This document shows positions 787-62,921 of a DNA stretch of 64,000 bases, in pieces. Position numbers and translations under genes: made by a program. Each line of letters starts with the position of its first letter. Positions within the stretch are counted from its first letter, which is position 1. The DNA is from Anolis carolinensis (taxonomy: Eukaryota): contig NC_085842.1 of the NCBI RefSeq assembly GCF_035594765.1, positions 208,517,747-208,581,746 of the forward strand. The letters run 5' to 3'. The notes below the pieces were generated by a model. That model had not been told where the DNA came from. It did not search any database and saw only the letters and a list, made by a program, of their open reading frames with translations.

Positions 787-889
787 TCTCACAAACTCTG
801 AGGATGCCTGCCATAGATGTGGGTGGAACGTCAGGAGAGAATGTTTCTGGAACATGGCCATACAGCCCGGAAAACTCACAGCAATCCAG
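787..889 (+). mobile_element. PLE terminal-repeat fragment
   Basis: Matches 38751-38850. TSD TAAATAAGAG at 777-786 and 890-899. Hammerhead GAAA mutated to GGAA. Confidence 0.8.
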
Positions 890-1670
890 TAAATAAGAGG
901 TTCTCATCCACATGTAGCGATCATGTGTGTGTATACCGGGGCTATCAATCTTCGGCAGACTAGTTCACAATTCTTCTATTTCATCTATGTAATTATAACC
1001 CATCCATCTCGGATCCTGTTTACGCGGGGTATAAAGCGGGTCGCATTTATTTTCTTTTACACAGACACAAATCAACATTGAGACCATTAGATCTAACTCA
1101 CCCAGCCTTTCAAGAGCAGACATGGTTGCTGCCATATTTACTACTGAGAGATTAAACATTAATAACAAAATATCATAATATAATCACAACCAGTCCTTTT
1201 AAAAAATCCCCAGTTGTCTGAGCACGAAAGATTAAGCATTATTGGGTTGGACTCATGCAAGGAACAAACTCTATAAAAACGCTCAAACGTTTTTGGAAGC
1301 ATCTATTATATTCTTGCAATGTGGCGGCATTTCTTTCTTCCTTCCCGGTTGCTTTTTTCCCTTCGTGCCCCAATAACAACATGGTGGGCAAGTGAATTTT
1401 TTAAAAAAGAGATTAAAAAAACTCCTGCAAGAAACAATGTAGTGGTTAAGAATTGTACATAACTCATCCTAGGAAAATAATAATAATGAACCCTCTCCCC
1501 ACAATATTATCAGACACGTGTCGTCTGTCTTTGTTATGTTTTAACACCATAGGGTGAATTGTTTCACATTCTTCCTGCAATGAAAAGTAAGATACCTTTA
1601 AATCCATCAACAGCAATTCAATAGAGCAAATATATCCGCTGATTACACAGAGAGAGAGAGACATACATAT

Positions 1671-1704
<34 letters not shown>

Positions 1705-2150
1705 TACACACAGAGAGAGACATATATATATTACACACACACATATATCTTTGCAATACATATATAAGCAAAGAGATATTAATCTCTTCGCTCCCTCTTA
1801 AGACTGAAAGAGGCTGAGAGAAAATCAATTTCCCCGGGCGATAAACGTCTGGATTCCTCGATTCCCGTAAGATCCAATAGTTGATTCCCAGAAACAGACG
1901 GTGAGGAAGGGAGGGAGGCAAGGAGGGAGGCAAAGCAAGCGGCTAGCCGACCTTAAGCATGAAAACAAGAAAGACCTTTCAATCCGCTAGGATGGATAAC
2001 ACAACAGAGACAGAGAAACGGGCACAGGTGCTGGGGTCCCAATTTCTGACCTCTAAAATAATCTATCCATGTTAGGTTTCCTTGCCAGGCTGTTTTTAGT
2101 TGACCTTCCTCTCATTCTGCTTATAATATACTAGATATAAGGTCTTGTCT

Positions 2151-2294
2151 NNNNNNNNNNNNNNNNNNNNNNNNNNNNNNNNNNNNNNNNNNNNNNNNNN
2201 NNNNNNNNNNNNNNNNNNNNNNNNNNNNNNNNNNNNNNNNNNNNNNNNNNNNNNNNNNNNNNNNNNNNNNNNNNNNNNNNNNNNNNNNNNNNNN
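2151..2294. other. Assembly gap (N run)
   Basis: N characters. Confidence 1.
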
Positions 2295-2607
2295 AACATC
2301 ACAACCTCTGGGGATGTCATCCCTCAGGCAAGAAACAGACAGGCTTTGAATCTGCAAGGCCATTAAATGCTAGCCAAGCTGGCCATATGCAACATTTACA
2401 CTTGCCTTCAACAGACAAGAGTTCTTTCTCCCAGCCTGGACTTTTCACAGATATTTAAACCCCACTTGCCGAGTTTCCAACAGACCTCACAACCTCTGCG
2501 GATGTAGGCTAAACCTCAGGAGAGAATGCTTCTGGAACATGGTCATACAGCCCGGGAAAACTCACAGCAACCCAGTGATTCCGGCCATGAAAGCCTTCGA
2601 CAACACA
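2295..2607 (+). mobile_element. PLE terminal-repeat fragment about 500 bp upstream of the HOXC13 ATG
   Basis: Homology to the PLE 3' region. Abuts the N gap. Confidence 0.78.
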
Positions 2608-3098: not shown

Positions 3099-3801
3099 AT
3101 GACGACTTCCCTGATCTTGCATCCACGCTGGGCGGAGACCTTCATGTACGTCTACGAGGAGACCCCGAATGAGAGCAGCGCCAACAAGATCCCAGCCTCC
3201 GCCGCCGCCATGGAAGGGCTCGCGGGGAACTGCCCGGCCAGCCACTGCCGGGACCTGATCGCCCACCCGGCCCTGGGACGACACTCCAGCGGGCTCGGCG
3301 GACACCAGGGCTCGGTCTACGCGGAGATCCCGGCGCCCGACGCCGCCCGGCAGTGCCCGCCGCCGCCTCCTCCGCCTCCTCCTCCCGCCGCCTCCAGCGC
3401 CCCCTTGGGCTACGGCTACCCCTTCGGAGGCAGCTACTACGGGTGCCGCTTGTCCCACGCCCACAACGTGAACTTGCAGCAGAAGCCTTGCTCCTACCAC
3501 CCGGCGGCAGCCGAGAAATACCCCCCGGAGCCCAGCGGCTCCCTCCCCAGCGAAGAACTCTCCTCCCGGGCCAAAGAGTTTGCCTTTTACCCCAGCTTTG
3601 CCAGCTCCTACCAAGCCGTCCCAGGCTATTTGGACGTATCCGTGGTGCCCGGGATCAGCGGACACCCGGAGCCCCGCCACGACGCGCTGCTGCCCATGGA
3701 TGGCTACCAGCACTGGGCGCTCTCCAACGGGTGGGACGGGCAGGTCTATTGCTCCAAGGAGCAGCCCCAGTCCGGACACCTCTGGAAGTCACCCTTCCCA
3801 G
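3099..3801 (+). CDS. HOXC13: Homeobox protein Hox-C13, coding exon 1
   Basis: MTTSLILHPRWAETFMYVYE N-terminus and Hox13 motifs (LSSRAKEFAFY, GYLDVSVVP, YQHWALSNGWDGQVYC, HLWKSPFP). Phase-1 donor CCAG|GTAGGG after 3801. Confidence 0.96.
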
Positions 3802-4485
3802 GTAGGGCTGCCTCTCTCTCTCCTCCTCCTCGGGATGATCCCCCGCCCTTCCCGCTGCCTCTCTCTCTTTCTTTCTCTGCTCCGTATGTTGCATGTTAAC
3901 CCAGCCGCCCAGGTGAATCTGGGGCTCTTGCACAGGCACGCAGGAGGCGAAGAAGCCAGCGGGTTGGAAATCCGGCTCCGTGCCTGCGAGCTCCGAGGTG
4001 CTGCTTTCACACTGCGTGCCAATGAATGTCTGTGCCTGTTTTGATCGCCCCCTCCTTCCCTCACGCAACTGGATTCCTCAATTCTGCTTGCATCCATCAC
4101 AAACATCGGAATATTACAAACCACATGTTTATATATACAATATCAGAGTTACCCTTTATCTGGCTGGATCTACCCTGCCAAATAATGCCATATATAGATA
4201 TGTAGGTAGGTAGGTAATTATTACCCCGAGTTACCCATTCTCTGGCTGGATCTACCCTGCCATTTGACTGCTACAGTAATGTAATTCAGATTCCATTATA
4301 TGGGTGACTGCATCGTGCATTGTACCGGTGACTATACCATGTAGATTAACTGAATATGGCCCTTTCTTTACTGCCATCTAAAATCCAGATTATCTGCTTT
4401 GAGCTGGATTATGTGGCATTGTAGACGCCTATAATCCAGTTCGAAGCAAACAACCTGGATTATTTGCTTTGATCATCTAGATTCT

Positions 4486-4713
4486 AGAACCCCCGTGGTG
4501 CAATTGCTGACCGAAAGGTCGGGGGTTCGAATTCGGGAACCGGGTGAGCTCCCGTCTGTCGGCTGCAGCTCCTCGTGCCGGGACATGAGAGAAGCCTCCC
4601 ACAAGGATGGTAAAACATCAAACATCCGGGCGTCCCCTGGGCAACGTCCTTGCAGAAGGCCAATTCTCTCACATCAGAAGCGATTTGCAGCAAGTCGCTT
4701 TTGACACAAAAAA
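4486..4713 (+). mobile_element. tRNA-derived SINE (Sauria-SINE-like head) in the HOXC13 intron
   Basis: B-box GGTTCGAAT, tail AAGTCGC..TGACAC(A)n. Homologous to 30289-30507. Confidence 0.8.
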
Positions 4714-7700
4714 TCACCCCAGTTACCCTTTCTCTGGCTGGATCGACCCTGCCAAATATGAAAGCTATATCATGCCATTCAAACTCCATCATGCACTATG
4801 CATTATACCGGTGGCTGTACCATGTAGGTCACTAACTATGGCCCTTTCTATACAGCCAGTTAAAATCCAGATTATCTGCTTTCAGATGGATTATATGACA
4901 ATGTAGACTCATACAATCCAGTTCGAAGCAGACAAGCTGGATTATCTGCTTTGATCATCTGGATTCTCTGGCAGTGTAGATCCAGCCTAATTCATGCTGT
5001 TCAAGCTGCATTATTCGACTAGCGTGGATCCTCTTGTTTTCCTCCCCCTTTTGCTCTCTCTCTCTCTCCCTCTTCTAGGAAGGCCAGGCTTTTATTTTTT
5101 TCGGAAAGGGACAGTAAATCATATTGCAATTACAGAAGTAGCTGTCAAGTGACATGAATCTTACAAATGAATCTTGTAAGGGTAGCGAAAGGGGGGAACG
5201 AGAGCGATGCTTTTGCCTCTGGTTAGAAATCTGGCCTGAGTGACAGGCGGCGATGGGGGGACTGAAAGCTGGGGGCGCTTTATTGGGAGGGAGAGATGGA
5301 AAACCCAGGACGACTCCTTTGCTCTTGGGGTCCCCACCTTGCCATCAATATACAGGCCCTTCTCTCACGGCGGGGTGAATAGGAGCGGAGAGTCTGAGAC
5401 TGAAAAAACAAGGAGGGCTGGGTTGGGAGGGAGAGAAGGGAAGGGAAGGGGTGGGTGAGGATAAAGGCAGCGGAAAGCAGGCATTTATCGTGGGGATGCC
5501 CCTTCAAGAGAAGACTCGGCTTGCCAACAATGCCTGCTCGGAGCGAGCGTTGCATGATGGGGGTTTTCCTCCCTTCCTGTAAGGAAGGAGAAATCAGAGT
5601 TGAGTGCGGAAGGAAAGAAAGAGAAGGCCCCATTTAGTCTTGCTGTTCTTTCAGCCTCTTGTATTGGCAGAGGTTTCGTTGGGGGGTACCGGTGAAGACC
5701 TCCTTGTTTATTTGAGTCCAGAATACCCAAGGAAGCCTGGGTTAGATGGAAGGCGGAGAGGCAAGGGGTTTGCAAGCCTGAGTGGTGTGAGAATGAATGC
5801 AGGTTTCCCCATCTGTGTTCCTTTTTTTGGAAGAGGTTGGAAGGGATCTTCCATCCACTGCTGTGGTTCCTAAAAGCAGAGTGGAGAGAGCTCAAAGGAA
5901 GAGCCTCATCTCATTTTCTCCTTCATTCTCGTTCCGTTTTCCTGATACATTGTTGGAGGGGGGCGGGACTCCAAAGCACTGTATGTGTGTGTGTGTGTTT
6001 GTGTGTGCCTGCCACACTTTGTTTTCACTGCCTCAAAAGACGCCATTGAAATAATAGAAAGATATTCTAGGAACTCTGGGAAAAGTAAGAATCCACCAGC
6101 TACACAACTAGGAAAAAAGGAAAACACAAACACCTTAGCTGCCTATAAATAACAAAGAACCCTATCGCTCACTGAAGGCAAGGAGCTTTATTTGTCATGA
6201 GCGAGCGGTTAATCTACTACAGAAGAAACAACAGGGGCTTGTAGCAGCTTAAATAGACCCTAGTAGCCAGCTTTGTTTGGCTTGAACTTCGGAGGAGAGC
6301 AACCCACTATTTCAGTTGTGAGCAACTGAAATGGTGGGTCTTTAAGGTCTTGCATGATTAACTGCTGCAACCACAATTCGGGGGGGGGGGGCATTTTTCC
6401 CCATTGAGAGTGTCTCTTCTCTTCTCCATCATGGAGAAATACTCTCCATGAGGTTTCGGCTGTCCTTCGTGAGGACCCACCCCCCACCCCCCAAAAATAC
6501 CTCCCTACCCCATCCCTTTGCCCCCTTCATTTCAGTCTTTCCAAGAAAATATTCTGAGAGGTTTCTGCTGTCCTTCGGCAGGAAATCCCCTCCCCAAATT
6601 ACCTCCCCAACCTACTCCTTTGCCCCTTTAATTTCAGTCTTTCCGTGGCCATAGTTCGGCCAGTGCAAACCAGCTCTGAGGTATTATCCAGCCTATTTAA
6701 TTCAAGAACGCCTTCGAGAGAAAGATAAAGAAAAGAGCCCGGTTGGAAGGGGGGGGGAGAGATTGAGGTCGATGCACGAGTGATTACAGTTAATCCTGAC
6801 GAATTGGCAACGGGGCAGCCTTTGCAGAAGATGCTATTAAGGAGGAGACTGTATGCATGAAGGAATAATGAGGATCATTGATTCCCCACTGCCTTCTAGA
6901 CTAGGCGAGGTGTTTCCCATTTCCCAACAGCGTGGGAATCGCTGGAGAAAGCACAAAGCATTCGACACAACCAGGGCCTGGTGGTTTGGGATTCTTCTTA
7001 GTGTAGCTCTCCTGAGCAGCAAAGGATGTGGACAGGAGGGGAAGGGAGAGAAGGTGCAGGTCCCTCAAGCTCACAGATGGCCCTTGAGCTGCATAGGTGC
7101 CAGAACTAAACATCAGGAGAGAAAGGGATTGGGAGAAAGAGATACACACACCACAAACACAGAAACAAACACAGGGGACTCGATGCCTCAAATGCTGAGG
7201 TCTCCTGGAACAAACCCAGACCGCGTCCACACAGCTGAGGAAAATCCCACATTATCTGCTTTGAATTGAGATATATAGCTGTGTAGACTCAGATAACCAG
7301 TTCAAAGCACATCTTGAGGGATTTTCTGCCTTCTATTCTGGGTTATATGGCTGTGTGGAAGCCCCCCCCCCCCCCCCCCCAGTTCACGAGGAAGGCGAAG
7401 AGAGTCTCTCTAAAAGCGACCGCTTCAACATTCACTGGATGCTTAGAAGGGGAGTGATGGGCTGGGTCTCCATTAAAAAAAAAAGTGGGGGGGATCACTA
7501 ATTTTGGAACCAACTTCCAAATTTCTAATTTCGGCTGCCCTCTTTGCTAAATGCCTTTTCCTTGACTTGCTGGGCTTTCTTTGTCTCAGATCAGTCTCGC
7601 TCGGAATAGCAGCACCCCTTGATACCTCCCATGCTGATATATTAATACTGGCTGGAGAAGACCACTCCACCCTGCACAGTCCCAACCGCGTCTTGCTTGT

Positions 7701-7881
7701 CCCCCCCCCCCCCCTTTATTTCTCTCCTTAGTCTCTCATTCTATCTTCCTCTCTTTTTCTCCCCCATCCACATTTCCATTTCTTTCCTTCGCATCCTCCC
7801 CATAGGCTTATTTTCCCCTTCTCTATAATGTCTGGAAGAGACATAGCCCATCTAGTTACAAGATGCTGTTTAATATAATAG

Positions 7882-9054
7882 ACATCTTTCTTTCTTTCTT
7901 TCCTTCCTTTCCTCCCTTCTTCCTTTCTTCCTCAATCTCTCTTCCTTTTTCCCCTCTCTGTCTCCTTCTCTTCTTCCTTCCTCAATTTTTTTCATTTACA
8001 CTTTCTCTCTGCTTCTTCTCCGTTAATTTTCTTTCCTCTTCCTTTCTTCCTCAATCTTGATTTTTCTTTTTCTTTCCTCTTCTCTCTCTCTTCTTCCTTT
8101 CTTCCTCAATCTCTTTTTTCCTCTTTCTTTCCCCTTCTGCTTCTCCGGCCTTTCTCTCTCATTCCTGCCTCTTTTCTTCTTCCTCCTCAATATCTCTTCT
8201 AAATTTTTCTCTTTCCATTCTCTTTTCGGCCCTTTCTTTCTTCTGCCTGTCTTCTCTCCTTCTTCCTTTCTTCCTCAATTTTGATTTTGCTTTTCCCTCC
8301 TTTCTTCCTTCCTTTCTTTCTTTCTCTTTCTTCTTTGTTTATTCCTCAATCTCTCTTTTTTCCCTTTTTCTCCCCCTGCTTCTCCTGCCTTTCTCTCTCT
8401 CCTGCCTCTCTTTTCTTCTACTTCCCCAATATCTCTTCCTTTTTCTCTTTCTGTTCTCTTTTTGGACTCCTCTTCTTCCTTCCTTTCTTCCTCAATCTCT
8501 TTTTTCCTCTCTCTCTCCCTCTCCGTCCTTCCCCAATCTCTGTTTCTTTTTCTCTTTCTCTTCTCTTTTCTGTCCTTTCTCTCTTCTCTTCTCTGTCTTT
8601 TCTTCCTCATTTCCCTTCCCCTTTCTCTTTCTGTTCTTGTTTCTATACTTTCTTCTATTTGTCTTCCTTCCTTCCTCAATCTCTCTTCCTCTGACTCTTT
8701 CTGTTCCCCTTTCTGCCCTTTCTCTCATCTCTTCTTCTTCTCTTCTTCCTCAATCTCTTTTTCCTCTTTCTCTCCCTCTCTTCTCTCTCTCTCTCCTGTA
8801 TCTCTTCTTCCCACCTTCCTCAATCTCTCTTCCTTGTTCTCTTTCTGTTCTCTGTTCTGTCCTTTCTCTCTCCACTTCTTCTTCATTTCTTCCTCAATCT
8901 CTCACCCTTTGACTCTTTCTCTTTTCTGTCCTTTCTCTCTTCTCTTATTTTTCTTCCGCCCTGAATCCTTGATTTCTCTTCCTCTGTGCTCCTCCGTCCT
9001 TTCTCTCTCCCTCTCTCTCTTCCTTCTGCTCTTTCCTCTTCTCCTCATCGTTTC
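7882..9054 (+). repeat. Polypyrimidine cryptic minisatellite in the HOXC13 intron
   Basis: C/T-rich, with recurring TTCTTCCTCAATCTCT. No AG dinucleotide seen in the interval. Confidence 0.9.
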
Positions 9055-9056
9055 AG

Positions 9057-9313
9057 ATGTGGTCCCTCTTCAACCCGAAGTGAGCAGCTACCGTAGGGGT
9101 CGAAAGAAAAGAGTCCCCTACACGAAAATCCAGCTGAAAGAACTAGAGAAAGAGTACGCCGCCAGCAAGTTCATTACCAAAGAGAAGCGACGACGGATCT
9201 CGGCCACCACTAACCTTTCCGAGCGCCAGGTCACCATTTGGTTTCAGAACCGGAGGGTGAAGGAGAAGAAGGTGGTTAGTAAATCTAAGGCACCTCACCT
9301 GCACGCCACCTGA
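9057..9313 (+). CDS. HOXC13: Homeobox protein Hox-C13, coding exon 2 (homeodomain)
   Basis: Acceptor TTTCAG|AT. Joins in frame to give [34 protein letters not shown]...[11 protein letters not shown]...HLHAT*. Spliced CDS is 960 nt (319 aa). Confidence 0.97.
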
Positions 9314-9903
9314 CCCAGCCAGGCCTTCAGAGGGGGCCAGGAAGGGCAAAAACAAAGCCAGAACAAACAAGCCCAAGTCTAGAGAAGCCGCCGACACTCT
9401 CAGCACCACTACCGCCAACTAAAGGGGGGACAGGACAGAATCAAAGACACCTATTTATCGGGTCCATTTGTATAAAAATAATAATCCAGCCAGGCATCGG
9501 GACTCTTTAATTTGATTATTTAAAGAAAAAACACCTCCAAAGAGGCGGCCAGGGATTGCAACCGCCCTCTTTGGGTTGTCTTCTGTCTTCTGTCTTCTTC
9601 TGTCCATGTTGCCATCCTCTTTAACTGTGAATGCCGTCGCCTTTCTTACACAGCAGTTTGGATATGATTTTTCAAGATGCACATTGGACAAGTAGAGGGG
9701 AGGGAAAGGTGGGGTACAAATCAGTCTGGTTCCTACCAGGGGTGTCTGAATGTTATATTGTACATCGTCTTCCCTCCCCCCTCTTTCTCTTTCTTTGGCT
9801 GTTTTTTTAATGAATATATGTATATATAAATATAAATATATATATATATGGGGAACTTTTTCAAAGCGGTTCCGGTAAAGATACCATAATTATTTGTTTA
9901 ATA

Positions 9904-10346
9904 TGTTGTCGGAGGCCTTCATGGCCAGAATCACTGGGTTGCTGTGAGTTTTCCGGGCTGCACGGCCATGTTCCGGAAGCATTCTCTCCTGACGTTTCGC
10001 CCACATTTATGGCAGGCATCCTGAGGTTTTGAAACTCTTGGAAACTAAGCAAGTTGGGTATCTGTGGAAGGTGCAGGGTGGGAGAAAGAACTCTTGTCTG
10101 TTGGAGGGAAGTGTGAATGTTGCAATTAATCGCCTTGAAAAGCCTTACAGCTTCAAGACCTGGCTGCTTCCTGCCTGGGGGAATCCTTTGTTGGGAGGTG
10201 TTAGCTGGCCATGACTGTTTCCTGTCTGGAATTCCTCTTTTCTGGGTGTTGTTCATTATTTACTCTCCTGGATTTTAGAGGGTTTTTTTAATACTGCTGG
10301 CCAAATTTTGTTCATTTTCATGGTTTCCTCCTTTCTGTTGAAATTG
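9904..10346 (-). mobile_element. PLE 3' fragment downstream of the HOXC13 stop
   Basis: Homology to 38751-39150. Confidence 0.85.
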
Positions 10347-10489
10347 CTCTTCTTATCGTTTGTTGTTATTTCTAAGATTATTAGATAGAGTCCAAATAAC
10401 TGGTGACTCCCAGGTTTTTGAACAGAATCCGAATCTTTGAGAGATGATTCACTATATATAAAACTATATATCTGTGGATATATAGGTCT

Positions 10490-10703
10490 ATATATATGTG
10501 GAAGGTCCAGGGTGGGAGAAAGAACTCTTGAGAGGCCAGTGAGAATGTTGCAATTAATAATTCCACAGATATATAGACCTCACTTGCTTAGTTTTCAACA
10601 GACCTCACAACCTCTGAGGATGCCTGCCATAGATATGGGAGAAACTTAGGAGAGAATGCTTCTGGAACATTGCCATTCCGCCCGGAAAACTCACAGCAAC
10701 CCA
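10490..10703. mobile_element. PLE fragments (short minus piece, then plus-strand terminal repeat at 10560-10703)
   Basis: Homology to the PLE terminal repeat in both orientations. Confidence 0.78.
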
Positions 10704-13220: not shown

Positions 13221-15167
13221 ACTTCAAGGACAACCTTCCATGCTCTTAGTTGTGAATTGTTGGGGAATCTGTGCTGTTTGGCTCAAAATAACCCTCAGTT
13301 GGGGCAATTCCACCAAAAATATACCAGAGTACCAGAAGTAAACTTCATAACCAGCCGAAACTTTGTGTGATGAGTTGGGATAAGCTTCTATTTCTTAGGA
13401 TGGTTTGGGATTGCAGAGTCAGAACTTTAGGTTGAAAAATATTTATTGAAATAAAAGACATAAATTCTTGATAGAAAAAGGTACTGGAGCTAATTAACTT
13501 ACTGTGGGCCCTTCCACACAGCCATATAACCCAGAATATCAAGGCAGAATAACCCACAATATTTGTTCTGAACTGGAATATCTGAATCAACACTGCCATA
13601 TATCCCAGTTCAAAGCAGATATGGTGTGGTTTTATTCAGCTGTGTGGAAGGGGCCCAGGTTTCATCTTTTAATGAGGTAAAAGACCACGCAGCTTCATTT
13701 TGGCTAGAGAGAGGCAAAAATGTGCATATAACCCCCTAAGGAGGTCTGTGGACCTTCTTTCTGAGTCAGCACCCCAGAAGTCCACCTTAAATGTTCTGCT
13801 CCTGATCCTCGCCCCTTGAATTCCCTGTTCCTGTCTATGAAATAATACTTCTAGGCCTAAAGTCTCTTTTATTTTGTTTATCTAGAAGATGTAAAGACCT
13901 GGCCGTCAGAAGCAGTGAACGCTGCTAGACTTCCTCCTGGGTAGACACACAGATTAGGCGAGAGGTGGATCCAAGAGTTTTCTTTGCTTGGGCCAGCGCT
14001 AGTATGCATATTTTCTCCCACTGAACCCATCTTAAATTTGTCAGCGGTCAAAGCTTTTTGGACCATCGCTGAGCAATCCGTCCTTGGTACATTATGAAGT
14101 CACAGAGGCCCAGCACAACCGGTCCGGAGAGCCCACGGCCCTGGGCGAGTGGGCAAAATGCAGGCGGAGAGGCTGAGGCCGGGCACTCTCTGATCCCTAT
14201 CTTGAAGCTGGTGTGGCACTTTTCTTCTGCCCCATCGCCTACATCTTCCTGAGCTGTCCTCAATCCGGTAGGCATTTTCTAATTCATTTAAAGTATTTTA
14301 AAAATATGAATCTTGTGTACAACAGTGGTGCAAAGTATCCCAAATACAACAACTAACTTATCAAACGCCAGGATCTCAAGCCTAAACCTGTTACATGTCT
14401 GCATCTATGGATGGATCTATGCTGCTCTATATTGCAGTTTCAGAATGCAGATATAACATGATTTTTTGTTCCTGGGTTATAAATGCCGTTTCCTAATTGG
14501 TTCTGTCATAAAAACATGGAAACAGTTGATTACATTGCATTTTTGCGGGACATCCTGCAACACATTTTGCCATAGTTTTTCAAAGAATATCCCATCGAGC
14601 CTCAACCAGTTCAACATAGTAAAAAACAAGATTCTGAAGTATAAGAACTACTTTCAAAGTAAGTACCGCACAATTAAATAGGAATAACACTTTCAAAACA
14701 GGAACATAAGTTTTGTTCAAATTTTGTTACCTAGTGTTATATGGCAGTGTGGATTCGCATAATCCAGTTCAATTCAGTTAATCTGCATTTTGAAACTTAA
14801 TTATATGGCAGTGTAGATCCAGTCTTATTTTATTTTATTCACATACATGGTTGCCGGTCCAAAATTTTTGCACTTTCCAAGAAAGGTAGGGAGAATTTTT
14901 TTAAAATAGCTTTAATGTGTTTTCATAAATTAGGGCGTCAGAAGCATTCATCTTTGGATACGCTTATTGTATCTACATATATAGACTTGTTGCATTCTAG
15001 TTCAAAAACTCTTTAGTTTTTAGAGTGTGTTCATATAACTGTGAGTTTTAGGCGCATTTGCCTTTCAGTAGATGAGACCAGTCCTATCCATCCAATCCTT
15101 GATGCCCTTCAGTGAGTCTAAATTGTAAGTAATGGCTGCAGTTCAAGAAATAAAAGTTATGTCATTA

Positions 15168-15392
15168 TGTTGTCCATGGTTTTCATGGCCGGAATCACTG
15201 GGTTGCTGTGAGTTTTCCGGGCTGTATGGCCATGTTCCAGAAGCATTCTCTCCTGACATTTCACCCGCATCTATGGCAGGCATCCTCAGAGGTTGTGAGC
15301 TGTGGATGCCTGCCATAGATGTGGGCGAAACTTCAGGAGAGAATGCTTCTGAAACATAACCATACAGCCCGGAAAACTCACAGTAACCCAGT
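15168..15392. mobile_element. Inverted (fold-back) PLE terminal-repeat pair
   Basis: Minus copy to about 15299, directly followed by a plus copy. Confidence 0.82.
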
Positions 15393-52279: not shown

Positions 52280-52390
52280 GGGTTGCTGTGAGTTTTCTGG
52301 GCTGTATGGCCATGTTCCAGAAGCATGGCCATACAGCCCGGAAAACTCACAGCCACCCAGTTATTCCGGCCATGAAATCCTTCCACAACA
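52280..52390. mobile_element. Mini fold-back PLE insertion
   Basis: About 35-bp inverted arms. 13-bp TSD CAAGAGGAACATA at 52267-52279 and 52391-52403. Confidence 0.82.
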
Positions 52391-55109
52391 CAAGAGGAAC
52401 ATACTTTATCAAGTCCCTCTTGGTCACAATAAGGATGACCCCTATTCTCTCTATAAAATTAGATGAGTGGGTGGGCCCATGGTCACCACTTCTAAAGTCT
52501 GTGGCTGATACTCCAGTCCTCTTATTTTAAAGATTGTGGGATGTGAAATTCGAGAAACAGAAGGTCTCGGAAACCTCGCCTAATAATTCACCTTAGTTGG
52601 CCTGGAACTCAATGGCTTATATAGCAAGAGTTCATCCTAAATGACTAATGAGTCAGGAATTTGGAGCAAATCTAATCATGTTCTATTTCTCACCGCTGTT
52701 TTTTAAAAATTCTTTCTTTTCCTGAAATTTAAGCCTAAATGGTAAACGTTGCCGTTTTTTACAGTAATCTGTGAGAGCCTCTTTTGTCTTCTGCCCAAGC
52801 AAACGCACAGCACACTTAAGGTCTAAACTCTCCTTGAACCCATATGCCGATATTTTCCAAAGCAAAACCAACACTTATTCTCTTAGCTTTACTATGGCCT
52901 GCTATTTGTGTCTATTAATACCAGCATTAGCGTTGTTAATATTTATTAATATTATGTATTAGTTAATAATATATATTAATATTATTCTGCTTTTGCAGAA
53001 ATGGCGAGTAAGCCTGTTCTTTTTTCTCAGACTGTGTGAGCAAACTGGGTTGTTGTTTTTTCACGTCCCAGATTTCAGTTTTCCCTGTAAGAAATGAAGC
53101 TTTCAGTAGATGCCAGGATAAGCAGAGATCTTGTTTGCTAAGGAACTCTGGGGTTAGAAGGAGAAAATCAAGTCTTGGTTACCCCCAAGGAGGAAAAAAA
53201 AAAGGAAAAGGGGGAGAGAGAAAGCTATCAATTTGAGTCTGGACAGACCATTGCATTAAAAAGAAGAGCTGACCACGACCACCAGCCCTTTTTTCTTCCC
53301 CCCCCCCCCAAATGCCATCTCCACTACTTCAAGGCCACATTCAACAACAAAAACAACCTCCGACGCTGCAGTCTGCCCCAAACCCATTCCTTTGAATAGC
53401 CCTTTAATTCAGCAAGCTCAAGATTGCAAGAGGACGGGGGTTGGAGGGGGGGCGGAGACCGGCTTTTTTTTGGGGGGGGGGTTAACCTTTGGCGGTTTCC
53501 AATCTCGATCCTGACCCCCTCTTTTTCTCCCTTTCCCTCCCCTCCCTTCACCCTCCGCGAGGAAGTAGAGAAAATCGATTGTACCTCTTTTGGTGCAGGC
53601 TTTTAAAAATCAGCCCAAAATCTTAGCAATTCGGTGAGACCTTGCCTCTAATCCGCTGCTGATCTCTTCCCCTCACCCAACCCCTCCCTCCTCTCTCTTT
53701 TTTGGGTCGGGATGACTTCTGTTTACAACTGTCTGTCTGGGTGGGCGGGGGCCGCCATTGCAAAGTGAAGGTCAAGTTAGCATCCTACCTTATATGGCTA
53801 TACAGCTGTCCTCCATTTTCAGGGGTTTGTCACAAGGCGGCTCAGTGGACATCGCCTGGCTTCCCCCAAGTAAACATAGGGGGTCTCTGTCCTCCCCCAG
53901 CCCACCATTCTTGTTTTTTGGGGAAATGGGGGTCATCTGAATGCAAGGAGAGAGGAAAAGGGGGGCTTAGAAGATCTACTCGTGACGACTGCGGCTTGGA
54001 AAATCTCCCCCCCCTTTCTCTCCCTCGTTCCCTCCCTTCTCTCCCCCCCCCCTTCTTGGATTGCAGACTTCAAACAAGTCTTCTTTCAGCAAGATGCAAA
54101 CACGTCTGCCATGGAGGAAATTAAACGTCATAAAGAAAAGCCCAATTAGGGTTTTAATGTCTCAACATTCCCGTTTCCTCCAGAACACAATGAAGTTCGC
54201 TCGGTAAGGAGGGGAGAAAAGGGGGAGGGAAGAAGCTTGGGAGGAGGGAAAGGAAGACTTAGGTTTCCTTGTTTTGAAAGTATAATCCTTAAAGAAAAGA
54301 TGGTGGAACAGGGGGGGAGGGTGGGTGGAGAGATTGCCATGAAGGAAGAGAGAGCCCCAAAACACTGGAGTGTGGGAGCGTGCGTGCGTGTGTGTGTGAC
54401 TTTATGGAAGTGTGTGCTTATGTCTGTATGTACACAAAGACGGACAGAAAGGACAGGCGCGTGCACGCGCGCGCGCGCGCGCGCAAACACACACACACAC
54501 ACACAGAGGGTCCTAGGCCAAAGCAGCCTTAACCCCCTCCGGACATCTGCCAATGATTGGGGAGTAAGTAAGGAAGGAGTGGGTGGTCTCGGAAAATACC
54601 GAGATTGAACTGATAAAGTCTTATAGCGGCTGGATCGAGGAGAGGGAGAGGTGTGAGGGAGAAGAAAGGGGCCCCTAGGTGACTTCGGGTGCTCTATCTC
54701 CCTTCTCTTATCTTCCCTCCCTCCTTGGGGCCAAGCAATTTCCAGAATGGCAGGACTTTGTGGAGGAAAAAGTCCAAGGCAGCCGCCAACCAGCCCCAGA
54801 TGCCACCCACTGGGAGGAGGAGGACTAGCCTCTGCCTTTGGGACCCAAAGCATACCTTTTGGGTCTCTGCCTTGATTGTAATCGTGCCCCCAAGACCCAG
54901 ACATTGGCGTTTCCCTGACACTTCCGTAGACTCTTTTGTATATTCTTAGTGTGGGACAGGAGGAGAGCCAGTGCGGCGTTCTTTACCCGCAATCCCTTAA
55001 ATCAAGGAGTAGACCGATTCTCCAGTGACAGCCTCAAAAGCTGCTTAATCTATCCAAGGTGCGTGCTTTTGCGTGTGTCTTCCTAGACTGAAGCCAGATG
55101 TGAATTTAA

Positions 55110-55554: not shown

Positions 55555-55599
55555 CACTCCCCATCTTCCATGATGGGAACGACTTGAGATGGCATACAG

Positions 55600-55898
55600 A
55601 AACACCTCCCAACAAAGGATTCCCGCAAGCAGTAAGCAGCTAGACCTTGAAGCTGAATGGCTATTAAATGCTAATTAAGGTAGTCAATTGCAACATTCAC
55701 TCCTGTCTCAAACAGACAAGAGTTCTTTCTCCCACCCTGAACATTGGGCCATATAGTTTCCAACATACCTCACAACCTCTGAGGATGCCTGCCATATGTG
55801 GGCGAAACATCAGAAAATAATGCTTCTGGAACATGGTCATATAGCCCAGAAAACTCGCAGCAACCCAGTGATTCCGGCCATGAAAGCCTTCGACAACA
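55600..55898 (+). mobile_element. PLE 3' fragment
   Basis: Homology to the PLE 3' end. Confidence 0.78.
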
Positions 55899-56727
55899 CA
55901 AAAAGTCATTTCTTTTGTCACCTCCATGTCCTGTTCTCTATGGCTGTGATAAGGAAGAATGGGACGCATGAGCTCAACTCCATTTGATTTGCTTCATAAG
56001 ACGGATTGGGAGCATTTAAAAGGAGTTTGTTTTAATTAATAAGTAAGCAATGGCACTTCTATGGCTTTCAATCGGTCAATGGGCACACAGCTTTGGGCTG
56101 AGGTTTGCAAACAGCCGAGGATCTTTTCTTTAACTGACTATTGGGAAGACAAAGCAGTATCTGTGATACTATGGGCATTCCTATCTCTTCATCCTAAAAG
56201 ACAAGTTTCTGTGTCACTGGGTTGGATAAGTGGTTCTGCTCCTAGTATTTCAGAGAAGGAAAGAGGAAAACTGGAGTGTGTCTGTAGAAAAGAAAGGGAG
56301 CTGCAAAAGAAAAAGCGAAAATACTCATGTAAAGGGCGGTAGAAAAGAAAGGGGGGAAGAAAAATAATGAGAAAGAAGGAAGGGAGAGAAGGAAGGAAGT
56401 GAAGCAAAACGTCCTTTATCTTGAGGAAAACAAACATGAAACATGAAATGGAATCGAATAGTTAAAAAAAAACACTGTCCACACAGAATCAGTCACTTTA
56501 AAAAAATCCAGTGTATTTCAATCATAAATAATGTTTTTAATTCTTCCATAGACATCAGGGAGAGCTTTTAGACTATCTCTTAGGCTTGTAGAAGGTTGCT
56601 ATTTCCAACAATCTTGGTCTTCTGGAATGACCTATGGCTGAATATGTCTGTTTTATTCCGACATTTTTAAAAATATGCCTAACCCACTTTAGAATGGCAC
56701 TTTGGTCAGCAAAGTAGGTACTTCAAA

Positions 56728-57330: not shown

Positions 57331-58486
57331 TGAAAGCTTTTAATGTGAAGAGTACCACAAGGTCTCCCATAGACTTCAACCACACAGTATGGAACTTGTC
57401 TGCATCATTTCGAGCTTGTATTCCTCCCTCAGTAACTGTCTCTAAACCATCCACCGCTAACTTTTCAAAGTCCTAAGGTGTGGTCAAGATTGCCGTTATT
57501 TGCACCTAGGCCAATCTGATTGTAAATTGCGCTCCATGTTGCTGCTTTCAAAGGGATCCCTGGATAGAGAAAGAGATAGAGAGACCTCACATTTCTGGAG
57601 AGGGCTGCCGCGCGCACGCGCACACGCTCCCATTCAAACAAAGAGGCTGATATTTCATAGCAGGGCCAAAAAAGAAAGAATGAAAGCAAAGAAACCCTCC
57701 CTCGCTCCGAAGGCTCTGAAGTATCCTGCCAACCCATACAACGGGATTCTGTGTTCGCAAAGTGTCACCGCATAACCATCCCAGACAATTCCGTGGTCAA
57801 TTTATTCAGATTAGTGTGGATACTGGAACTGATCCCAATGCAACCCAGCTTCCACTGAGGCGGGTGGGGTACAGAGCAGCGGTAGGAGGTTTAAGATGGG
57901 TGTGTGGTTTTCTCCCCTCCCCCTTCTTTTTCTCTTCCTTTATCCTCCTTGATCTCCACATATAAAATAGGAACAAGGCGGCCTGTTTGATGAAATGAAA
58001 GAAAAGTAGCCATCAAGATATAGAGATGTGCCATTTAAAAATATTTTTAATCTTTCTGCCCACCCTGAGGCACGCTTCCAGGCCCACAACTCAAAGGGCA
58101 ATGTGTCTTCTAAGAGTGTTTGGATCAGGCCCATCCTCAAAAACTTTGTATTTCTTCAGACAAACCAAACCAAGTCCTTTTCCTCCCAGATATTGCCATT
58201 CTTGAAGTCCTTGCTTGTAAACCGGGCTGGCGCCTGAAATGCATTCTTCTTACTGCAAACCGGGTGTTGTGTATTCACTTCCCTGCTTTCCAGGAAAGCA
58301 TGTTCGGACAATAAAGCAATTTTTAAAATAAAAAAGCACTGTCTGGTCACTTTTGTACCGTTTACATGAATAGCATTTAACACTCGTGATATATTTCTGA
58401 GTTTGTTGCATGTCCTGTTGGTAAATACATGCAGCAACGAATTTTTCATTTTGTTCTTAAGTAAGCGACTAGCATAATAATGGATT

Positions 58487-58698
58487 ACTGTGAGTTTTCT
58501 GGGCTGTATGGCCATGTTCCAGAAGCATTCTCTCCTGAAGTTTCGCCCACATCTATGGCAGGCATCCTCACAACCTCTGAGGATGCCTGCCATAAATGTA
58601 GGCAAAACCTTGTGATGCTTCTGGAACATGGCCATACAGCCGGGAAAACTCACAGCAAGTAACCCAGTGGTTCCAGCCATGAAAGCCTTCGACAACAC
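58487..58698. mobile_element. Fold-back PLE terminal-repeat pair
   Basis: About 80-bp inverted arms around the 7-nt loop CAACCTC (58571-58577). Confidence 0.82.
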
Positions 58699-61600
58699 AT
58701 AGAATAATAATTTCTGGAACTGGGGTCTCTCTGCCGCAAAAGTTGATTTCTTGGCTGAATTTCTATGCTTCTTTTGATTTCTTTTTTTTAAAAAAACATC
58801 ATAAGTCATGGGCAAACTCCAGTGAACTTGGCTTTGTGAGTTATTTACACACCGCTTCCCTTCTCTCCTTCCTTGCTCCCCCTCTTCCCTCCCTCAAAAT
58901 ACTGGGGCAATGGTTTCTTTTTATTTAAGCCAGTTTTGCCAATGCATCCAACTGATTTGAGGGTGCCTTTAAAGAAATTTGTGTTGCCACTGGCATCTCA
59001 TCCACACCTCCTTGGAAGGAAAGCCACCCTGGAATGAGACTCACATCTACACAAAATTAGGCTTACCCGAGGGGCGAGCTGTGTCCAACTTAATCCAAAG
59101 TCTCCTTGCCTAAGATGCGAGTCAATGAGAAGCCCTGGACTCTCCTCTTTCTCGTTGCCAACCCAAACCAGGAGCAGAGTTGCTTATTTTCACCCCAAAG
59201 GTGCTCCTCCGGGGAGGCACCGAGTGTACCTCTCTCTGCCTTTTAGGCCGCCTAAGAGCTGGCTTTGAGGGTGGCTGGTAAGCCAGGCCGCTTATCAGCT
59301 TTTATCTTTATTGGGTCCACATGATTTTGAACTTGCAACCCTGGCCTGGGAAAGATCTTTGACAAAAAAGTCCTCCCCTCCGCTTTGTTTCCTTTCGCAG
59401 CTTATGAAGCCGTCTTTAGTAGGCTGGCTTATATCCAATTAAATTTATCTTTGCCATTGGGGGATCATAACATTGTCCAAGAGCTTCCTACTTGTGGCTA
59501 TTGTCTCTTGGCCCCGGATTTCCTCAACGCTCAACCAGTCGCGGGTAATCTATTTGCTGGCGAAGTTGGGCTTTTTTGGAAATACCCTTTGGGCTTCATT
59601 GAAATAGATCAGGGCATTTTATTTTGCCTTAGACAGTCATTATCTAAGGCCCTTTCTACACTACATATAACCTGGATTTTATATGGCAGTGTAGAAAGGG
59701 CCTAGTGTGTGGCAATCCTTTTGCCTAAATTAGTAAGTAACACCACCATCAGCATTAACTTAGTACACGTTGAAATAGATCAGAGCATTTTATTTTGCCT
59801 TAGGAAGTCATTATCTAAGACTCCTTCTTTACTGCCATATAAAATCCAGATTATCTGCTTTGAACTGGATTATATGGCAGTGTAGACTCATACAATCCAA
59901 TTCAATGCACATAATGTAGATTATTTGCTTTAATGATCTGAATTATATGGCTGTGTAGAAAGGGGCCTGAGTGTTGCAATCCTTTTGCCCAAATTAAATA
60001 AATAACACCACATCAGCTCCAGTTTGGGACCCCAAACATGTTGACATCCAAAAGTCACTTCCACTAGAAATTTCGATATCACAGAGTCCTTAGGAGGTAA
60101 ATGTTTGGGGAGGGTTTGGCCCAAGAAATGCATGAAAAACGGGTTGTATTAAACATTTTGAGGGGTTTTGCCTCTCAAATCATCCTGAAATCCGCAGAAG
60201 AAGCTCGTCCATTCTGAAAATATAAGCTTCTCTATCCTGATTTCTCTCTTTTGAAAATAAGAATAAATTCAAAAGCCATTATCGATACTCCCGCTGAGGA
60301 AGATAAGGAAAACCATCCGAAATTTAGATTAATACACATGATGGTATCCCTTTATATTTGTTTTCCAGTAAACGGTCTCTGTAAAATAGTAATATGGGCA
60401 GAACTGACAAAGGCTTCTGTGTTATAGCCTCCACAGAGAATTTTCCCTCAGTTTGGACCAAAAAGCTAAACCAAATTGACTTTGGATGGCAAATATGAAT
60501 TTCTTTCTCAGAGGGATACTTGACCAAAGAGACTCGTTTCTTGACGGCAAAGGTGGGTAAACCGTGTCCAAAACCTCCTTGGACATGATATCATGCTCAG
60601 TCTGGACTTCTTTAATGTGCAATGTACACAAACAAGCCAAAGAAGGGCTGGAGTCTTGCCACTGAGACGGGAACATGCCTTTGGCCAAGTCCGCCACAAC
60701 TATAACAGAGACGGGTTCTTTGGAAGTTCAGTTTAGCCGCAGTGAAAGAAGGTTTCCTAGAAAGCCTTGCTTTTGAATGTTTTCTCTCTCGTTTTACAAC
60801 TAAAAATAAAACAACAAAAACAAAAAACACTGCAGTATGTATTTCACTGCTCACCATTAAAGCAGGCAAATGAGATGGACATTTATTGTATTGTTTGAAC
60901 ATAGGAATGCAATACGATACAATGCCGAAATACTCTCGAAGCTACAAAGAAATGGCAGGATAAATAATATACATACTTCTAATTACATGATGAAACCTTG
61001 CCCAAGAGTTTATATATGAAGATTTCCTCTGCCCTTCCTTCTTCCCTTCCTTTACATTTTAAGAAACAATGGAGAAATCACATTCTCGTGGAGGCAACTT
61101 TGAAAACATTTTGAAACTTTTTAAAAAAATCTCTTTTTCTCTTGTGCACATGTAAGCGTCTATAAACTGTAAAAAAGAAAAGCTATCCCTGATGAAAGAA
61201 ACCCGCAAACACTGCAGTTTATTTGCCCTACACACATTGAGCTGCTTTTTTTTAAAAAAGAAAAAAAGTGGAGACCAAAAGGAATGTGAGACTTCCAGTC
61301 TTCATTCTTCTGTTTTATGGTAGTCAGGGAATTGACTTTGGTGGTTCAAATTCAAGTGCTGGAGCTCCGCAGCTGTCTTTTTCTGGGCTTCTTCGCAGGA
61401 AGCTGACAAATCCTATACTTTCAACCGGGCTTTAAAAAAAACTGCACCACGGCACTGGGGCTTTGCTGAGGCTTACATCTACCTATTAAGAGCAATAAAT
61501 TACTGGCACACCTAAAGGAGAGATCCTGCTCATTATTATACCACCCCAATGGCTTTCAGCAGCCACCCCCTCGAGACCCCCTCTGCTTCGCCACCTAAGC

Positions 61601-62409
61601 AGCCCAGAAAGATGGCGAAATTAATCTAATCTCAAGAACGGGGAAATTAGAAAGAAAATGCATGGACTTTTTATCCTTTTTTACCTCTTTAAAAGAGGAG
61701 ATATAATAAGTTAGTTAGCTCCAAGACCTTTTCCATCAAGAATTTATTTATTTTATTTCAATAAATATTTTTGAACCTAAAGTTTTGACTCTGCAATCCT
61801 AAAACATCCTGAGGAATAGAAGTATATCCCAGCTCACCACACTTACGTTTCTGCTGATTATGAAGTTTACTTCTGGTACTCTGCTATATTTATGGTGGAA
61901 TCACCCCAACTGAGGGTTATTTTGAGCCTAACAGCTCAAATTCCCCAACAAAAAGAAAGAAAAAGAAAGGAAGGAAGGAAGGAAGGAAGGACGGGAAGTG
62001 GCATAGTCTCTCTGCAAGTATTCTCCCTACCCAGACCCATGGCAAATAATATCCGCCTGATCCCACACACCATTGGAGTTGTTCTGTTTGTGGGTGGGCA
62101 TGAAGCCCCAGGATAAAGTCCCTCGTAAACAAATGCTTTATTAGTTTGGAGTTGGTATGAATATTACTTCGTAAAAAAGGGAGAGAAAGGCTCCCTGGCA
62201 CTTTGCGTTTTAAAAGTTTGTGCTTAAACCAACAGCCAACTCGTAAAAAGCTGGCCGAATGCAGGGGTGCCTGCTTGAAAACAACCCATCCTTACAATGA
62301 GCAATTTTAGTGGGGTTGTTGTTTCTTCTTCTCCTTCTCTCCCTCCTTTCCTGGATCCTTGCCTTAGCCCTAAACTAGAAAGGTGTGTTGGAGATAGCAA
62401 TGGGACGCA

Positions 62410-62921
62410 GAACACAGAAATGTTGGACCATTCTAACAACCACTATGTCAGACTACACAGAGAAGCCATTAAAATCCACAAGCATGTGGACAGTTTCATC
62501 AGAAAGGAGGAAACCATGAAAAGGAACAAAATCTGGCTACCAGTATTTTAAAAAAATCTAAAATCAGGATAGTAAATAAAGAACAACACTCTGAAAACAG
62601 GGGAATTCCAGACAGGAAACAATCAGGGCCAGCTAACACCTCCCAACAAAGGATTCCCCCAGGCAGCAACCAGTCAGGCTTTGAAGCTGCAAGGCTTTTC
62701 AATGCTAATCAAGTACATTCACGCTTGCCTTCAACAGACAAAGTTCTGCTTCCACCCTGGACCTTCCACAAATCTAGTTTCCAATATACCTCACAACCTC
62801 TGAGGGTGCCTGCCATAGATGTGGGTGAAACGTTAGGAGAGAATGCTTCTGGAACATGGCCATACAGACCGGAAAACTCGCAGCAACTCAGTGATTCTGG
62901 CCATGAAAGCTTCGAAGACAC
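62410..62921 (+). mobile_element. PLE 3' fragment with endonuclease C-terminus
   Basis: Translates NTEMLDHSNNHYVRLHREAIKIHKH...NKIWLPV, matching the 805-aa ORF. Confidence 0.86.

What the first reader, a model, noticed from the sequence alone, without database searches (positions are those of the whole stretch)
787..62921. About 20 hammerhead ribozyme motifs spread through a Hox cluster by Penelope elements, two of them perfect
Seen: the most repeated motif in the window reads CCU-CUGAGGA-U-GCCUGC-CAUAGAU-GUGGGC-GAAACGUC^AGG. That is a full hammerhead core with a 6-bp stem II, a palindromic ACGU stem III and a 3-bp stem I. Perfect copies: 38803-38843 (-, predicted cut 38806/38805, about 120-150 nt past the RT stop) and 48369-48409 (+, cut 48406/48407). 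Near-intact copies: 21091 (+), 15255 (-), 46306 (-), 47854 (-), 55779 (+). The rest have core mutations. Established: PLEs carry minimal type I hammerheads thought to cleave as dimers through the palindromic stem III. Inference: Hox clusters produce long sense and antisense transcripts, and in mammals HOTAIR lies antisense between HOXC12 and HOXC11. These motifs could therefore act as RNA cleavage points on both strands of that interval. The sense copy in the probable HOXC13 3' UTR (10614) is inactivated, and none lies in either intron.
Basis: partly seen in the sequence, partly recalled or inferred. Interest (0 to 1): 0.75.

Follow-up and report, generated by a model that had tools for sequence, protein, structure and literature searches.

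The report
Known jumping-gene ribozyme remnants in HoxC
The repeated ribozyme motif in this lizard Hox cluster is the end piece of an already studied jumping gene, left by 18 insertions and decaying like the DNA around it, so it likely does not cut Hox RNAs; the mirror-image pairs likely record the element copying itself from both ends of one DNA break.

Summary
The motif is real: 20 copies, two perfect, 0 in 50 shuffles. It is the hammerhead of Poseidon_Ac (PAc), the green anole Penelope-like element tested in PMC11167929. That paper found no cleavage without PAc protein and no RNA-seq read ends at the cut site. The copies come from 18 insertions; 9 are two-armed inverted pairs, which explains the two strands. 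The Hox-cleavage idea is not supported. Core positions decay like their neighbours (11/214 vs 157/2236, p=0.39). The two perfect copies lie on opposite strands. The double hammerhead is predicted 12-20 kcal/mol worse than rival folds. The 48369 copy is predicted to be buried in a duplex with its own partner arm. No copy carries the +119..+155 part of the RNA that PAc needs for insertion. Side result: in 8 of 8 resolved two-armed insertions one end stops at +84 and the other at +118, the element's two likely reverse-transcription starts, and in 5 of 9 each arm holds sequence the other lacks. This points to priming from both ends of one break. Transcription was not tested.

The parts
38751..41345 (-). 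U11: young, near unit-length Poseidon_Ac copy (element +156 through ORF end and pLTR to +84), open RT-endonuclease frame lacking residues 1-52, 13-bp target duplication, no tail
   Evidence: 757/766 identical to A. carolinensis P0001; RVT_1; duplication TAATAAGTTTATG
38803..38843 (-). Perfect hammerhead motif; predicted cut 38806/38805; its ATG at 38834 starts a frame identical to residues 1-28 of the PAc-type protein P0001
47800..48495 (.). U14: two-armed insertion; minus arm -462..+84 (motif 47851-47891, one change), plus arm -32..+118; 11-bp target duplication
48369..48409 (+). Perfect hammerhead motif in the tailed arm of U14; predicted cut 48406/48407; 40 of 41 bases predicted paired to the other arm in a transcript crossing U14
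9902..10702 (.). U3: two-armed insertion in the probable HoxC13 3' UTR; minus arm 9902-10346 tailed, extra minus piece 10484-10558, plus arm 10561-10702 tail-less; both motifs (9988, 10611) damaged
   Evidence: first AATAAA after the stop is at 11522
15166..15389 (.). U4: two-armed insertion; minus arm tailed (motif 15252, core and stems kept with wobble pairs), plus arm tail-less (motif 15297, broken); target duplication weak (7/8)
27651..27878 (.). U9: two-armed insertion; minus arm +16..+93 (only 9 nt of tail), plus arm tail-less (motif 27786, A9 changed); no target duplication found
36588..37043 (.). U10: two-armed insertion; minus arm -293..+84 (motif 36640, broken), plus arm only +93..+118; arms do not overlap on the element; no clear target duplication
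43022..43193 (.). U12: old two-armed insertion; minus arm tail-less, plus arm with diverged tail (motif 43068, stems broken); no target duplication found
46218..46768 (.). U13: two-armed insertion; minus arm -13..+118 (motif 46303, core kept, stem II 5/6), plus arm -330..+84 (motif 46676, broken); target duplication 13/14
52280..52392 (.). U15: two-armed insertion without the hammerhead; minus arm +38..+84, plus arm +50..+118; 12-bp target duplication
58482..58699 (.). U17: two-armed insertion joined at the CCTCA hairpin; minus arm tail-less, plus arm tailed; both motifs (58534, 58574) broken; target duplication 11/12
787..887 (+). U1: single-arm remnant, ends at +84, motif 795 (A13 changed), 10-bp target duplication
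2320..2607 (+). U2: single-arm remnant, tailed, 13-nt deletion in the motif
16649..16730 (+). U5: single-arm remnant +37..+118, no hammerhead
17998..18151 (-). U6: single-arm remnant, tailed, motif 18084 (core kept, stem III broken)
20868..21207 (+). U7: single-arm remnant, tailed, motif 21088 (core kept, stem I 2/3, stem II 5/6)
24855..25268 (+). U8: single-arm remnant, tailed, motif 25153 (A13 changed), 13-bp target duplication
55601..55900 (+). U16: single-arm remnant, tailed, motif 55776 (core kept, stem III broken)
62409..62922 (+). U18: single-arm remnant -399..+118, motif 62797 (A9 changed), 10-bp target duplication
3099..9313 (+). Context: Hox13-group gene, two exons (named HoxC13 from recall of its N-terminus and from position)
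   Evidence: HoxA13_N and Homeodomain; ORFs
28794..31924 (+). Context: second Hox gene, two exons (named HoxC12 from recall)
   Evidence: Homeodomain in exon 2; ORFs
49453..49518 (+). Context: conserved HOTAIR-locus sequence (Rfam HOTAIR_2), 1 kb from the 48369 copy
   Evidence: 46.9 bits, E 5.8e-08, below gathering score 60

Best explanation
The motifs are the hammerhead-bearing ends of the anole Penelope-like retroelement Poseidon_Ac, left by 18 insertions between HoxC13 and HoxC11, and they are likely passive remnants that do not cut Hox-interval RNAs. Shown: each copy stops at element position +84 or +118 (one at +93), 10 insertions have clear 9-14 bp target duplications, 9 are back-to-back inverted pairs, and core bases decay at the background rate with CpG bases decaying fastest. 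Inferred, insertion: the element's nuclease makes a staggered cut in both strands; each 3' end primes reverse transcription on uncut element RNA, one at +84 and one at +118, likely by the two halves of a protein dimer; the two cDNA ends then join at short matches, giving a mirror-image insert with a tail at one end only. Inferred, why they stay silent: copying starts upstream of the RNA segment the protein needs, so every inserted end lacks it; without protein the core folds into rival hairpins, and in two-armed inserts it pairs with the other arm.
For: Identity: long copy 757/766 identical to A. carolinensis P0001, whose first 28 residues are read from the hammerhead itself. Compared by eye, window -126..+84 differs at 2 places from the 361-nt template printed in PMC11167929, and the cut lies 26 nt after the ATG as the paper says. 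Published on this RNA: no cleavage without protein, cleavage not needed for insertion, no RNA-seq reads ending at the site; a monomeric minimal hammerhead of S. mansoni was inactive and dimers were weak (PMC4209133). Decay: core non-CpG 11/214 vs other non-CpG 157/2236, Fisher p=0.39; CpG bases 14-36% changed; one perfect old copy among 19 has chance 0.26. Folding: double hammerhead 11.9, 15.7 and 19.7 kcal/mol above two rival monomers; 40 of 41 bases of the 48369 copy and 41 of 41 of the 47851 copy pair with the other arm. No window match to P0001 residues 41-52, i.e. about +121..+156; the paper's minimal RNA for insertion runs to +172. 22 of 27 arms span the cut site, so their templates were uncut. 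HoxC13 expression in anole embryos matches mouse (PMC6791295). Two-end priming: 8 of 8 resolved pairs have one tailed and one tail-less end (P 0.004 at even odds, 0.02 by permutation); in U9, U10, U13, U14 and U15 each arm has sequence the other lacks; PAc cuts and extends both strands, starts at two sites and is a predicted dimer.
Against: No RNA data from this locus were examined. The decay test has 20 copies and cannot exclude a modest effect or selection on one copy; its point estimate is slightly lower in the core (5.1% vs 7.0%). Folding energies omit tertiary contacts and proteins. The +172 requirement was measured for insertion, not for ribozyme cleavage. Mouse makes RNAs on both strands of this interval (PMC5157951), and PAc is expressed in anole RNA-seq, so protein could be present. 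For two-end priming: n is 9; only 5 of the 9 pairs have a clear target duplication; U9 has a partial tail; arms of one insertion share no more derived changes than unrelated arms (3/620 vs 146/25570), so a single template RNA is not shown; +84 as the second start site is my reading of the paper's text and its tail definition, as its figures could not be seen.
Confidence: 0.87

Rival explanations
1. One reading: intact copies cut sense and antisense Hox-interval transcripts on their own, as monomers or dimers, and so shape HoxC regulation.
For: Two perfect and two near-perfect motifs; 48369 lies 1 kb from conserved HOTAIR-locus sequence; both strands of this interval are transcribed in mouse (PMC5157951); no copy in the introns and the 3' UTR copy is damaged.
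Against: No cleavage without protein and no read ends at the site; perfect copies on opposite strands, nearest same-strand core-intact partners 5-9 kb away; core decay at background; unfavourable fold and burial in the partner arm; intron absence P about 0.10; HoxC13 pattern unchanged in anoles.
Confidence: 0.04
2. Protein-assisted, incidental cleavage: where PAc protein is made, it binds a read-through RNA over the 38803 copy and lets it cut. The long copy could even supply the protein, since the flank gives it an in-frame ATG (41377) and an open 805-codon frame.
For: PAc protein switches this ribozyme on in vitro; 38803 is perfect, single-armed and 99% PAc; open frame with a flank-derived ATG.
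Against: The copy stops at +84 and lacks +85..+155; its protein lacks residues 1-52, including part of the predicted dimer helix 27-173; no read ends at the site in the published survey; no evidence of minus-strand transcription here.
Confidence: 0.07
3. For the mirror-image structure only: one cDNA folds back or switches to an antisense template (self-priming), and the nuclease trims one end, as proposed for rotifer Penelope elements.
For: Proposed in PMC3846280 from palindromes at inverted junctions; in U3, U4, U12 and U17 the tailed arm contains the whole tail-less arm; overlaps of 5-15 nt at 6 of 9 junctions fit either model.
Against: In U9, U10, U13, U14 and U15 neither arm can be a copy of the other; the tail-less ends fall at +84, where direct insertions U1 and U11 also end.
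Confidence: 0.3
4. If the inserts affect Hox RNAs at all, they do so as long double-stranded hairpins (editing, nuclear retention or small-RNA production), not as ribozymes, above all U3 in the probable HoxC13 3' UTR.
For: Two-armed inserts are predicted to fold arm-to-arm (for U4, U13, U14); U3 lies before the first AATAAA after the stop.
Against: U3 itself was not folded; the 3' UTR extent is inferred only; no RNA data; HoxC13 expression pattern is conserved.
Confidence: 0.1

Closest known systems
Poseidon_Ac (PAc) Penelope-like element and its hammerhead (Frangieh et al. 2024, PMC11167929; read main text and methods, parts 1-3 of 4, and text of supplements 1-3)
   Same: Same element: 99% protein identity to the anole protein, about 99% RNA identity over -126..+84 by eye, ATG at the start of stem II, cut 26 nt after the ATG, ends at the tail boundaries.
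   Different: 17 of the 18 insertions are an older subfamily (72-78% to the long copy upstream, 83-96% around the motif). The paper does not discuss inverted insertions (its one 'inverted' is a chemical blocker).
Minimal type I hammerheads (min-HHR) of metazoan Penelope-like elements (Cervera and de la Pena 2014, PMC4209133; read parts 1-2 of 4)
   Same: Conserved core, long stem II, extra base between 9 and 10.1, G10.1-C11.1, palindromic 15.2-16.2, scattered single truncated copies, and pairs 100-700 bp apart on opposite strands.
   Different: Stem I is 3 bp, against the 4-5 bp given there for schistosome motifs; anoles are not named in the parts read.
Inverted pLTR with a one-sided tail (Craig et al. 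2021, PMC8557442; Arkhipova et al. 2013, PMC3846280; passages only)
   Same: Inverted 5'-truncated copy, 30-40 bp tail often at one end only, 8-10 bp target duplications, palindromes at junctions.
   Different: Those passages ascribe it to nuclease resolution or self-priming on an antisense template; here the two ends map to the two likely priming sites and 5 of 9 pairs exclude simple fold-back.
Transposon invasion of anole Hox clusters (Feiner 2019, PMC6791295, parts 1-3 of 5; Di-Poi et al. 2009 recalled, not held)
   Same: Repeat-rich, expanded intergenic Hox DNA in A. carolinensis.
   Different: No ribozyme role is proposed in the parts read; the altered gene there is HoxD13, while HoxC13 is unchanged.
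Host-exapted hammerheads (mammalian Clec2 3' UTR, amniote intronic RECK; recalled)
   Same: Hammerhead cores inside vertebrate gene regions.
   Different: Those are single, conserved, canonical ribozymes; these are multicopy, minimal and decaying at background rate.

Membership tests
Minimal type I hammerhead of Penelope-like elements | Conserved core C3 U4 G5 A6 N7 G8 A9, G12 A13 A14, A15.1-U16.1, H17 | tested here: met
   All present in both perfect copies; 10 of 20 core-spanning arms keep all 12 positions
Minimal type I hammerhead of Penelope-like elements | Long stem II closed by G10.1-C11.1 with one extra base after A9 | tested here: met
   6 pairs and extra U; stem II forms in the predicted folds
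Minimal type I hammerhead of Penelope-like elements | Loopless palindromic stem III (15.2-16.2) | tested here: met
   ACGU in the perfect copies; its CpG intact in 7 of 20-21 old-family arms
Minimal type I hammerhead of Penelope-like elements | Self-cleavage | not testable with these tools
   Published for the PAc RNA: only with PAc protein. Predicted dimer is unfavourable
Minimal type I hammerhead of Penelope-like elements | Match to an Rfam hammerhead model | tested here: not met
   No hammerhead family among 36 matches at E up to 1; the minimal form was defined by a descriptor, not by Rfam
Poseidon_Ac Penelope-like element | Single ORF with RT and C-terminal GIY-YIG endonuclease | tested here: met
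   RVT_1 E 1.4e-13; GVYRIPCSCGQVYIG motif read by eye (motif assignment recalled, Pfam gave no nuclease hit); 99% to P0001
Poseidon_Ac Penelope-like element | ORF starts at stem II, cut 26 nt after the start codon | tested here: met
   38834-38751 translates to P0001 residues 1-28; 26 nt counted on the sequence; paper text
Poseidon_Ac Penelope-like element | 3' ends at the tail boundaries, optional 30-40 bp tail, inverted arms, target duplications | tested here: met
   Ends at +84 or +118, 34-nt tail; 9 inverted pairs; duplications
Poseidon_Ac Penelope-like element | Tandem pLTR-ORF-pLTR unit competent to move | tested here: not met
   The long copy lacks +85..+155 and a 5' pLTR; no tandem in the window. 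It is a truncated member
Retrozyme (non-autonomous tandem hammerhead repeat giving circular RNA) | Head-to-tail tandem units with a hammerhead in each | tested here: not met
   No such array among 15 tandem-repeat rows in 28000-56000; copies are dispersed or back-to-back
Host-exapted regulatory hammerhead | Core conserved above background | tested here: not met
   11/214 vs 157/2236, p=0.39; low power
Host-exapted regulatory hammerhead | Orthologous copy kept across species and located in a real transcript | not testable with these tools
   No genome held for this window; no read-level data examined

The most novel reading that the evidence does not exclude
An antisense RNA from the HoxC12-HoxC11 interval runs through the young copy at 41.4-38.7 kb, is translated from the flank-supplied ATG into an 805-residue near-complete PAc protein, and that protein switches on the perfect hammerhead in the same RNA's 3' end: a self-contained, protein-gated ribozyme cut inside a Hox cluster. 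A milder and more likely novelty (about 0.55, interest about 0.45) is that the two-armed inserts are genomic footprints of a dimer priming at +84 and +118 from the two ends of one break.
Probability: 0.04. Interest if true: 0.7.

Novelty: already known. Interest (0 to 1): 0.22.

Why it matters
As given, little: the ribozyme, its element, its need for protein and the repeat load of anole Hox clusters are in print. If a copy did cut Hox-interval RNA it would be a transposon-borne, post-transcriptional way to alter Hox regulation, beside the usual spacing and enhancer ideas, but the evidence runs against it. The useful by-product is for retroelement specialists: how Penelope-like elements form inverted, one-tailed insertions is described as unresolved (PMC8557442), and the one-end-+84, one-end-+118 rule gives a cheap genome-wide and in vitro test of two-ended priming.

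Tried and rejected
Rfam scan: no hammerhead model matched; the microRNA hits lie on inverted repeats and are all below gathering scores. No genome is held, so no genome-wide counts. Run search for 45500-50000: 24 runs listed, no RNA holder listed on record, all kept as contigs; this is no evidence on expression. No reads were laid on the region, so transcription and insertion polymorphism stay open. Metagenome scans for more copies: 0 matches and 9 matches that align over only 18-21 nt, i.e. chance. Earlier findings: none. Idea that a G-to-T change at 16.2 in four tail-less arms marks a separate template: arms share no excess of derived changes; left unexplained. Idea that arms stop at the ribozyme cut: only 3 of 27 start at +32..+38, and 22 of 27 span the site; rejected. 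Strand bias of single-arm inserts, 7 plus and 2 minus: p=0.18. Intron avoidance: P about 0.10. Literature for a two-ended priming model: two searches and term searches in four papers did not show it; subscription papers, figures and the paper's GenBank supplement were not visible, so absence from print is not established. The 2026 retrozyme preprint had no relevant passage. Di-Poi 2009 is not held. The chicken sentence in PMC7139118 is ambiguous about HOTAIR and was not used; a search for HOTAIR in lizards listed one unrelated paper. The first motif script timed out.

Full report
Observation. A scan with the 41-base motif finds 20 copies on both strands at 0-13 mismatches, against 0 in 50 shuffles. 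Of 26 aligned arms, 20 span the catalytic core, 10 keep all 12 core positions, and 4 also keep all three stems. The window holds two Hox genes (named HoxC13 and HoxC12 from recall) and a sub-threshold Rfam match to HOTAIR conserved region 2 at 49453-49518. Rfam reports no hammerhead.

What it is. The long frame at 38960-41345 (-) is 757/766 identical to an Anolis carolinensis protein, whose first 28 residues are exactly what window 38834-38751 encodes, starting at the ATG inside the hammerhead. This is Poseidon_Ac (PAc), studied in PMC11167929 (I read the main text and methods and the text of three supplements; figures were not visible). The motif is therefore ribozyme and coding sequence at once. 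The long copy runs from element +156 through the ORF and pLTR to +84 and has a 13-bp target duplication. The other 17 insertions belong to an older subfamily.

Anatomy. The copies form 18 insertions. Every arm ends at +84 or +118, apart from one at +93. The paper places two reverse-transcription starts at the borders of the 30-40 bp tail, one at 111-118; I read +84 as the other. Nine insertions are back-to-back inverted pairs (U3, U4, U9, U10, U12, U13, U14, U15, U17). Five of them have a clear shared target duplication, U4 a weak one, and U9, U10 and U12 none. In 8 of 8 resolved pairs one end is tailed and the other is not; U9 has a 9-base partial tail. That has P 0.004 at even odds and 0.02 by permutation. 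In U9, U10, U13, U14 and U15 the tail-less arm reaches further upstream than the tailed arm, so neither is a copy of the other. Six of 9 junctions show 5-15 bases of overlap, one is flush, one has a 24-base filler and one holds a third piece.

Do they cut Hox RNAs? The published test of this RNA found no cleavage without PAc protein, no need of cleavage for insertion, and no RNA-seq reads ending at the site. A schistosome minimal hammerhead was inactive alone and weak as a dimer (PMC4209133). In the window, core bases outside CpG changed in 11 of 214 cells and other non-CpG bases in 157 of 2236 (p=0.39); the young copy, gaps and the first three letters of each arm were left out. CpG bases changed in 14-36% of cells, which accounts for much of the damage to stem III and the stem II closing pair. 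One perfect old copy among 19 has a chance of 0.26 at these rates. The two perfect copies are on opposite strands. The double hammerhead is predicted 11.9-19.7 kcal/mol above two monomers in rival folds, where the core pairs with an upstream CCUCA. In a transcript crossing U14, 40 of the 41 bases of the perfect copy are predicted to pair with the other arm. No window sequence matches P0001 residues 41-52, so every inserted end lacks part of the first 172 bases that the protein needs for insertion. 22 of 27 arms span the cut site, so their templates were uncut. Intron absence is not significant (P about 0.10). HoxC13 expression in anole embryos matches mouse (PMC6791295).

Against this reading. 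No RNA from the locus was examined. The decay test is small and its point estimate is slightly lower in the core. Folding energies ignore tertiary contacts and proteins. Mouse transcribes both strands between Hoxc12 and Hoxc11 (PMC5157951, passages), and PAc is expressed in anoles. The long copy has an in-frame ATG from its flank at 41377 that opens an 805-codon frame, so a helper protein made in cis cannot be excluded, though it would lack residues 1-52 and its RNA stops at +84.

Mechanism. Most likely (0.87) these are passive remnants. For how the pairs arise I favour (about 0.55) two-ended priming: a staggered cut in both strands, one end priming at +84 and the other at +118, then joining of the two cDNA ends at short matches. 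PAc cuts and extends both strands, shows no strand difference in start site and is a predicted dimer. The rival is self-priming or switching to an antisense template (PMC3846280), which fits U3, U4, U12 and U17 but not, in its simple form, the other five. Arms of one insertion share no excess of derived changes (3/620 vs 146/25570), so a single template molecule is not shown.

Known or new. The ribozyme and element are known. Inverted copies with a tail often at one end only are described (PMC8557442; PMC3846280), and opposite-strand pairs of minimal hammerheads 100-700 bp apart were noted in 2014. I did not find the link between the two priming sites and the two ends in two searches and four term searches, which does not show that it is unpublished; figures and one supplement of PMC11167929 that I could not see may bear on it.

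Verdict. Observation confirmed with small corrections; element identity supported; Hox-cleavage inference not supported. Already known. Interest 0.22, most of it from the testable end rule.

Noticed in passing
window 38963-41344 (-): Outside Anolis (99% and 88-89%), the best named relatives of the protein are insects: ladybird 59%, weevil 56%; the only other named vertebrate among the 120 listed is a goby at 38%. A hint of insect-to-lizard transfer; no tree built.
   Followed up: no
window 41377-38960 (-): The host repeat into which the long copy inserted supplies an in-frame ATG, giving an open 805-codon frame.
   Followed up: partly
window 38751-41345 (-): The long copy is one unit length minus 71 bases (+85..+155), stopping inside the RNA segment the protein needs; one case only, but it fits copying once round a tandem or circular template.
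   Followed up: no
window 9902-10702: A two-armed insert sits in the probable HoxC13 3' UTR and could form a long RNA hairpin there; first AATAAA is at 11522.
   Followed up: partly
motifs at 10611, 15297, 46676, 58534: All four are tail-less arms and all lose G16.2 (three clear G-to-T changes, one T or deletion); no tailed arm shows G-to-T. The stem III CpG has 7-8 transversions against 6 transitions. Unexplained.
   Followed up: partly
window 49453-49518 (+): Rfam HOTAIR_2 matches on the Hox-sense strand although HOTAIR is antisense (recalled); the orientation of the Rfam model was not checked.
   Followed up: no
window 23608-23625 (+): An isolated match to the last 18 bases of the tail (3 mismatches) inside another repeat; possibly a further remnant.
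   Followed up: no
window 29772-30283 and 42171-42553: Tandem arrays of 87 bp x 5.9 (in the HoxC12 intron) and 198 bp x 1.9.
   Followed up: no
window 13505, 15424, 22135, 22815, 23315, 33165, 37606, 45049, 49701, 50025, 50562, 51677: A second abundant repeat family of about 150-170 bp on both strands, unrelated to the motif.
   Followed up: no
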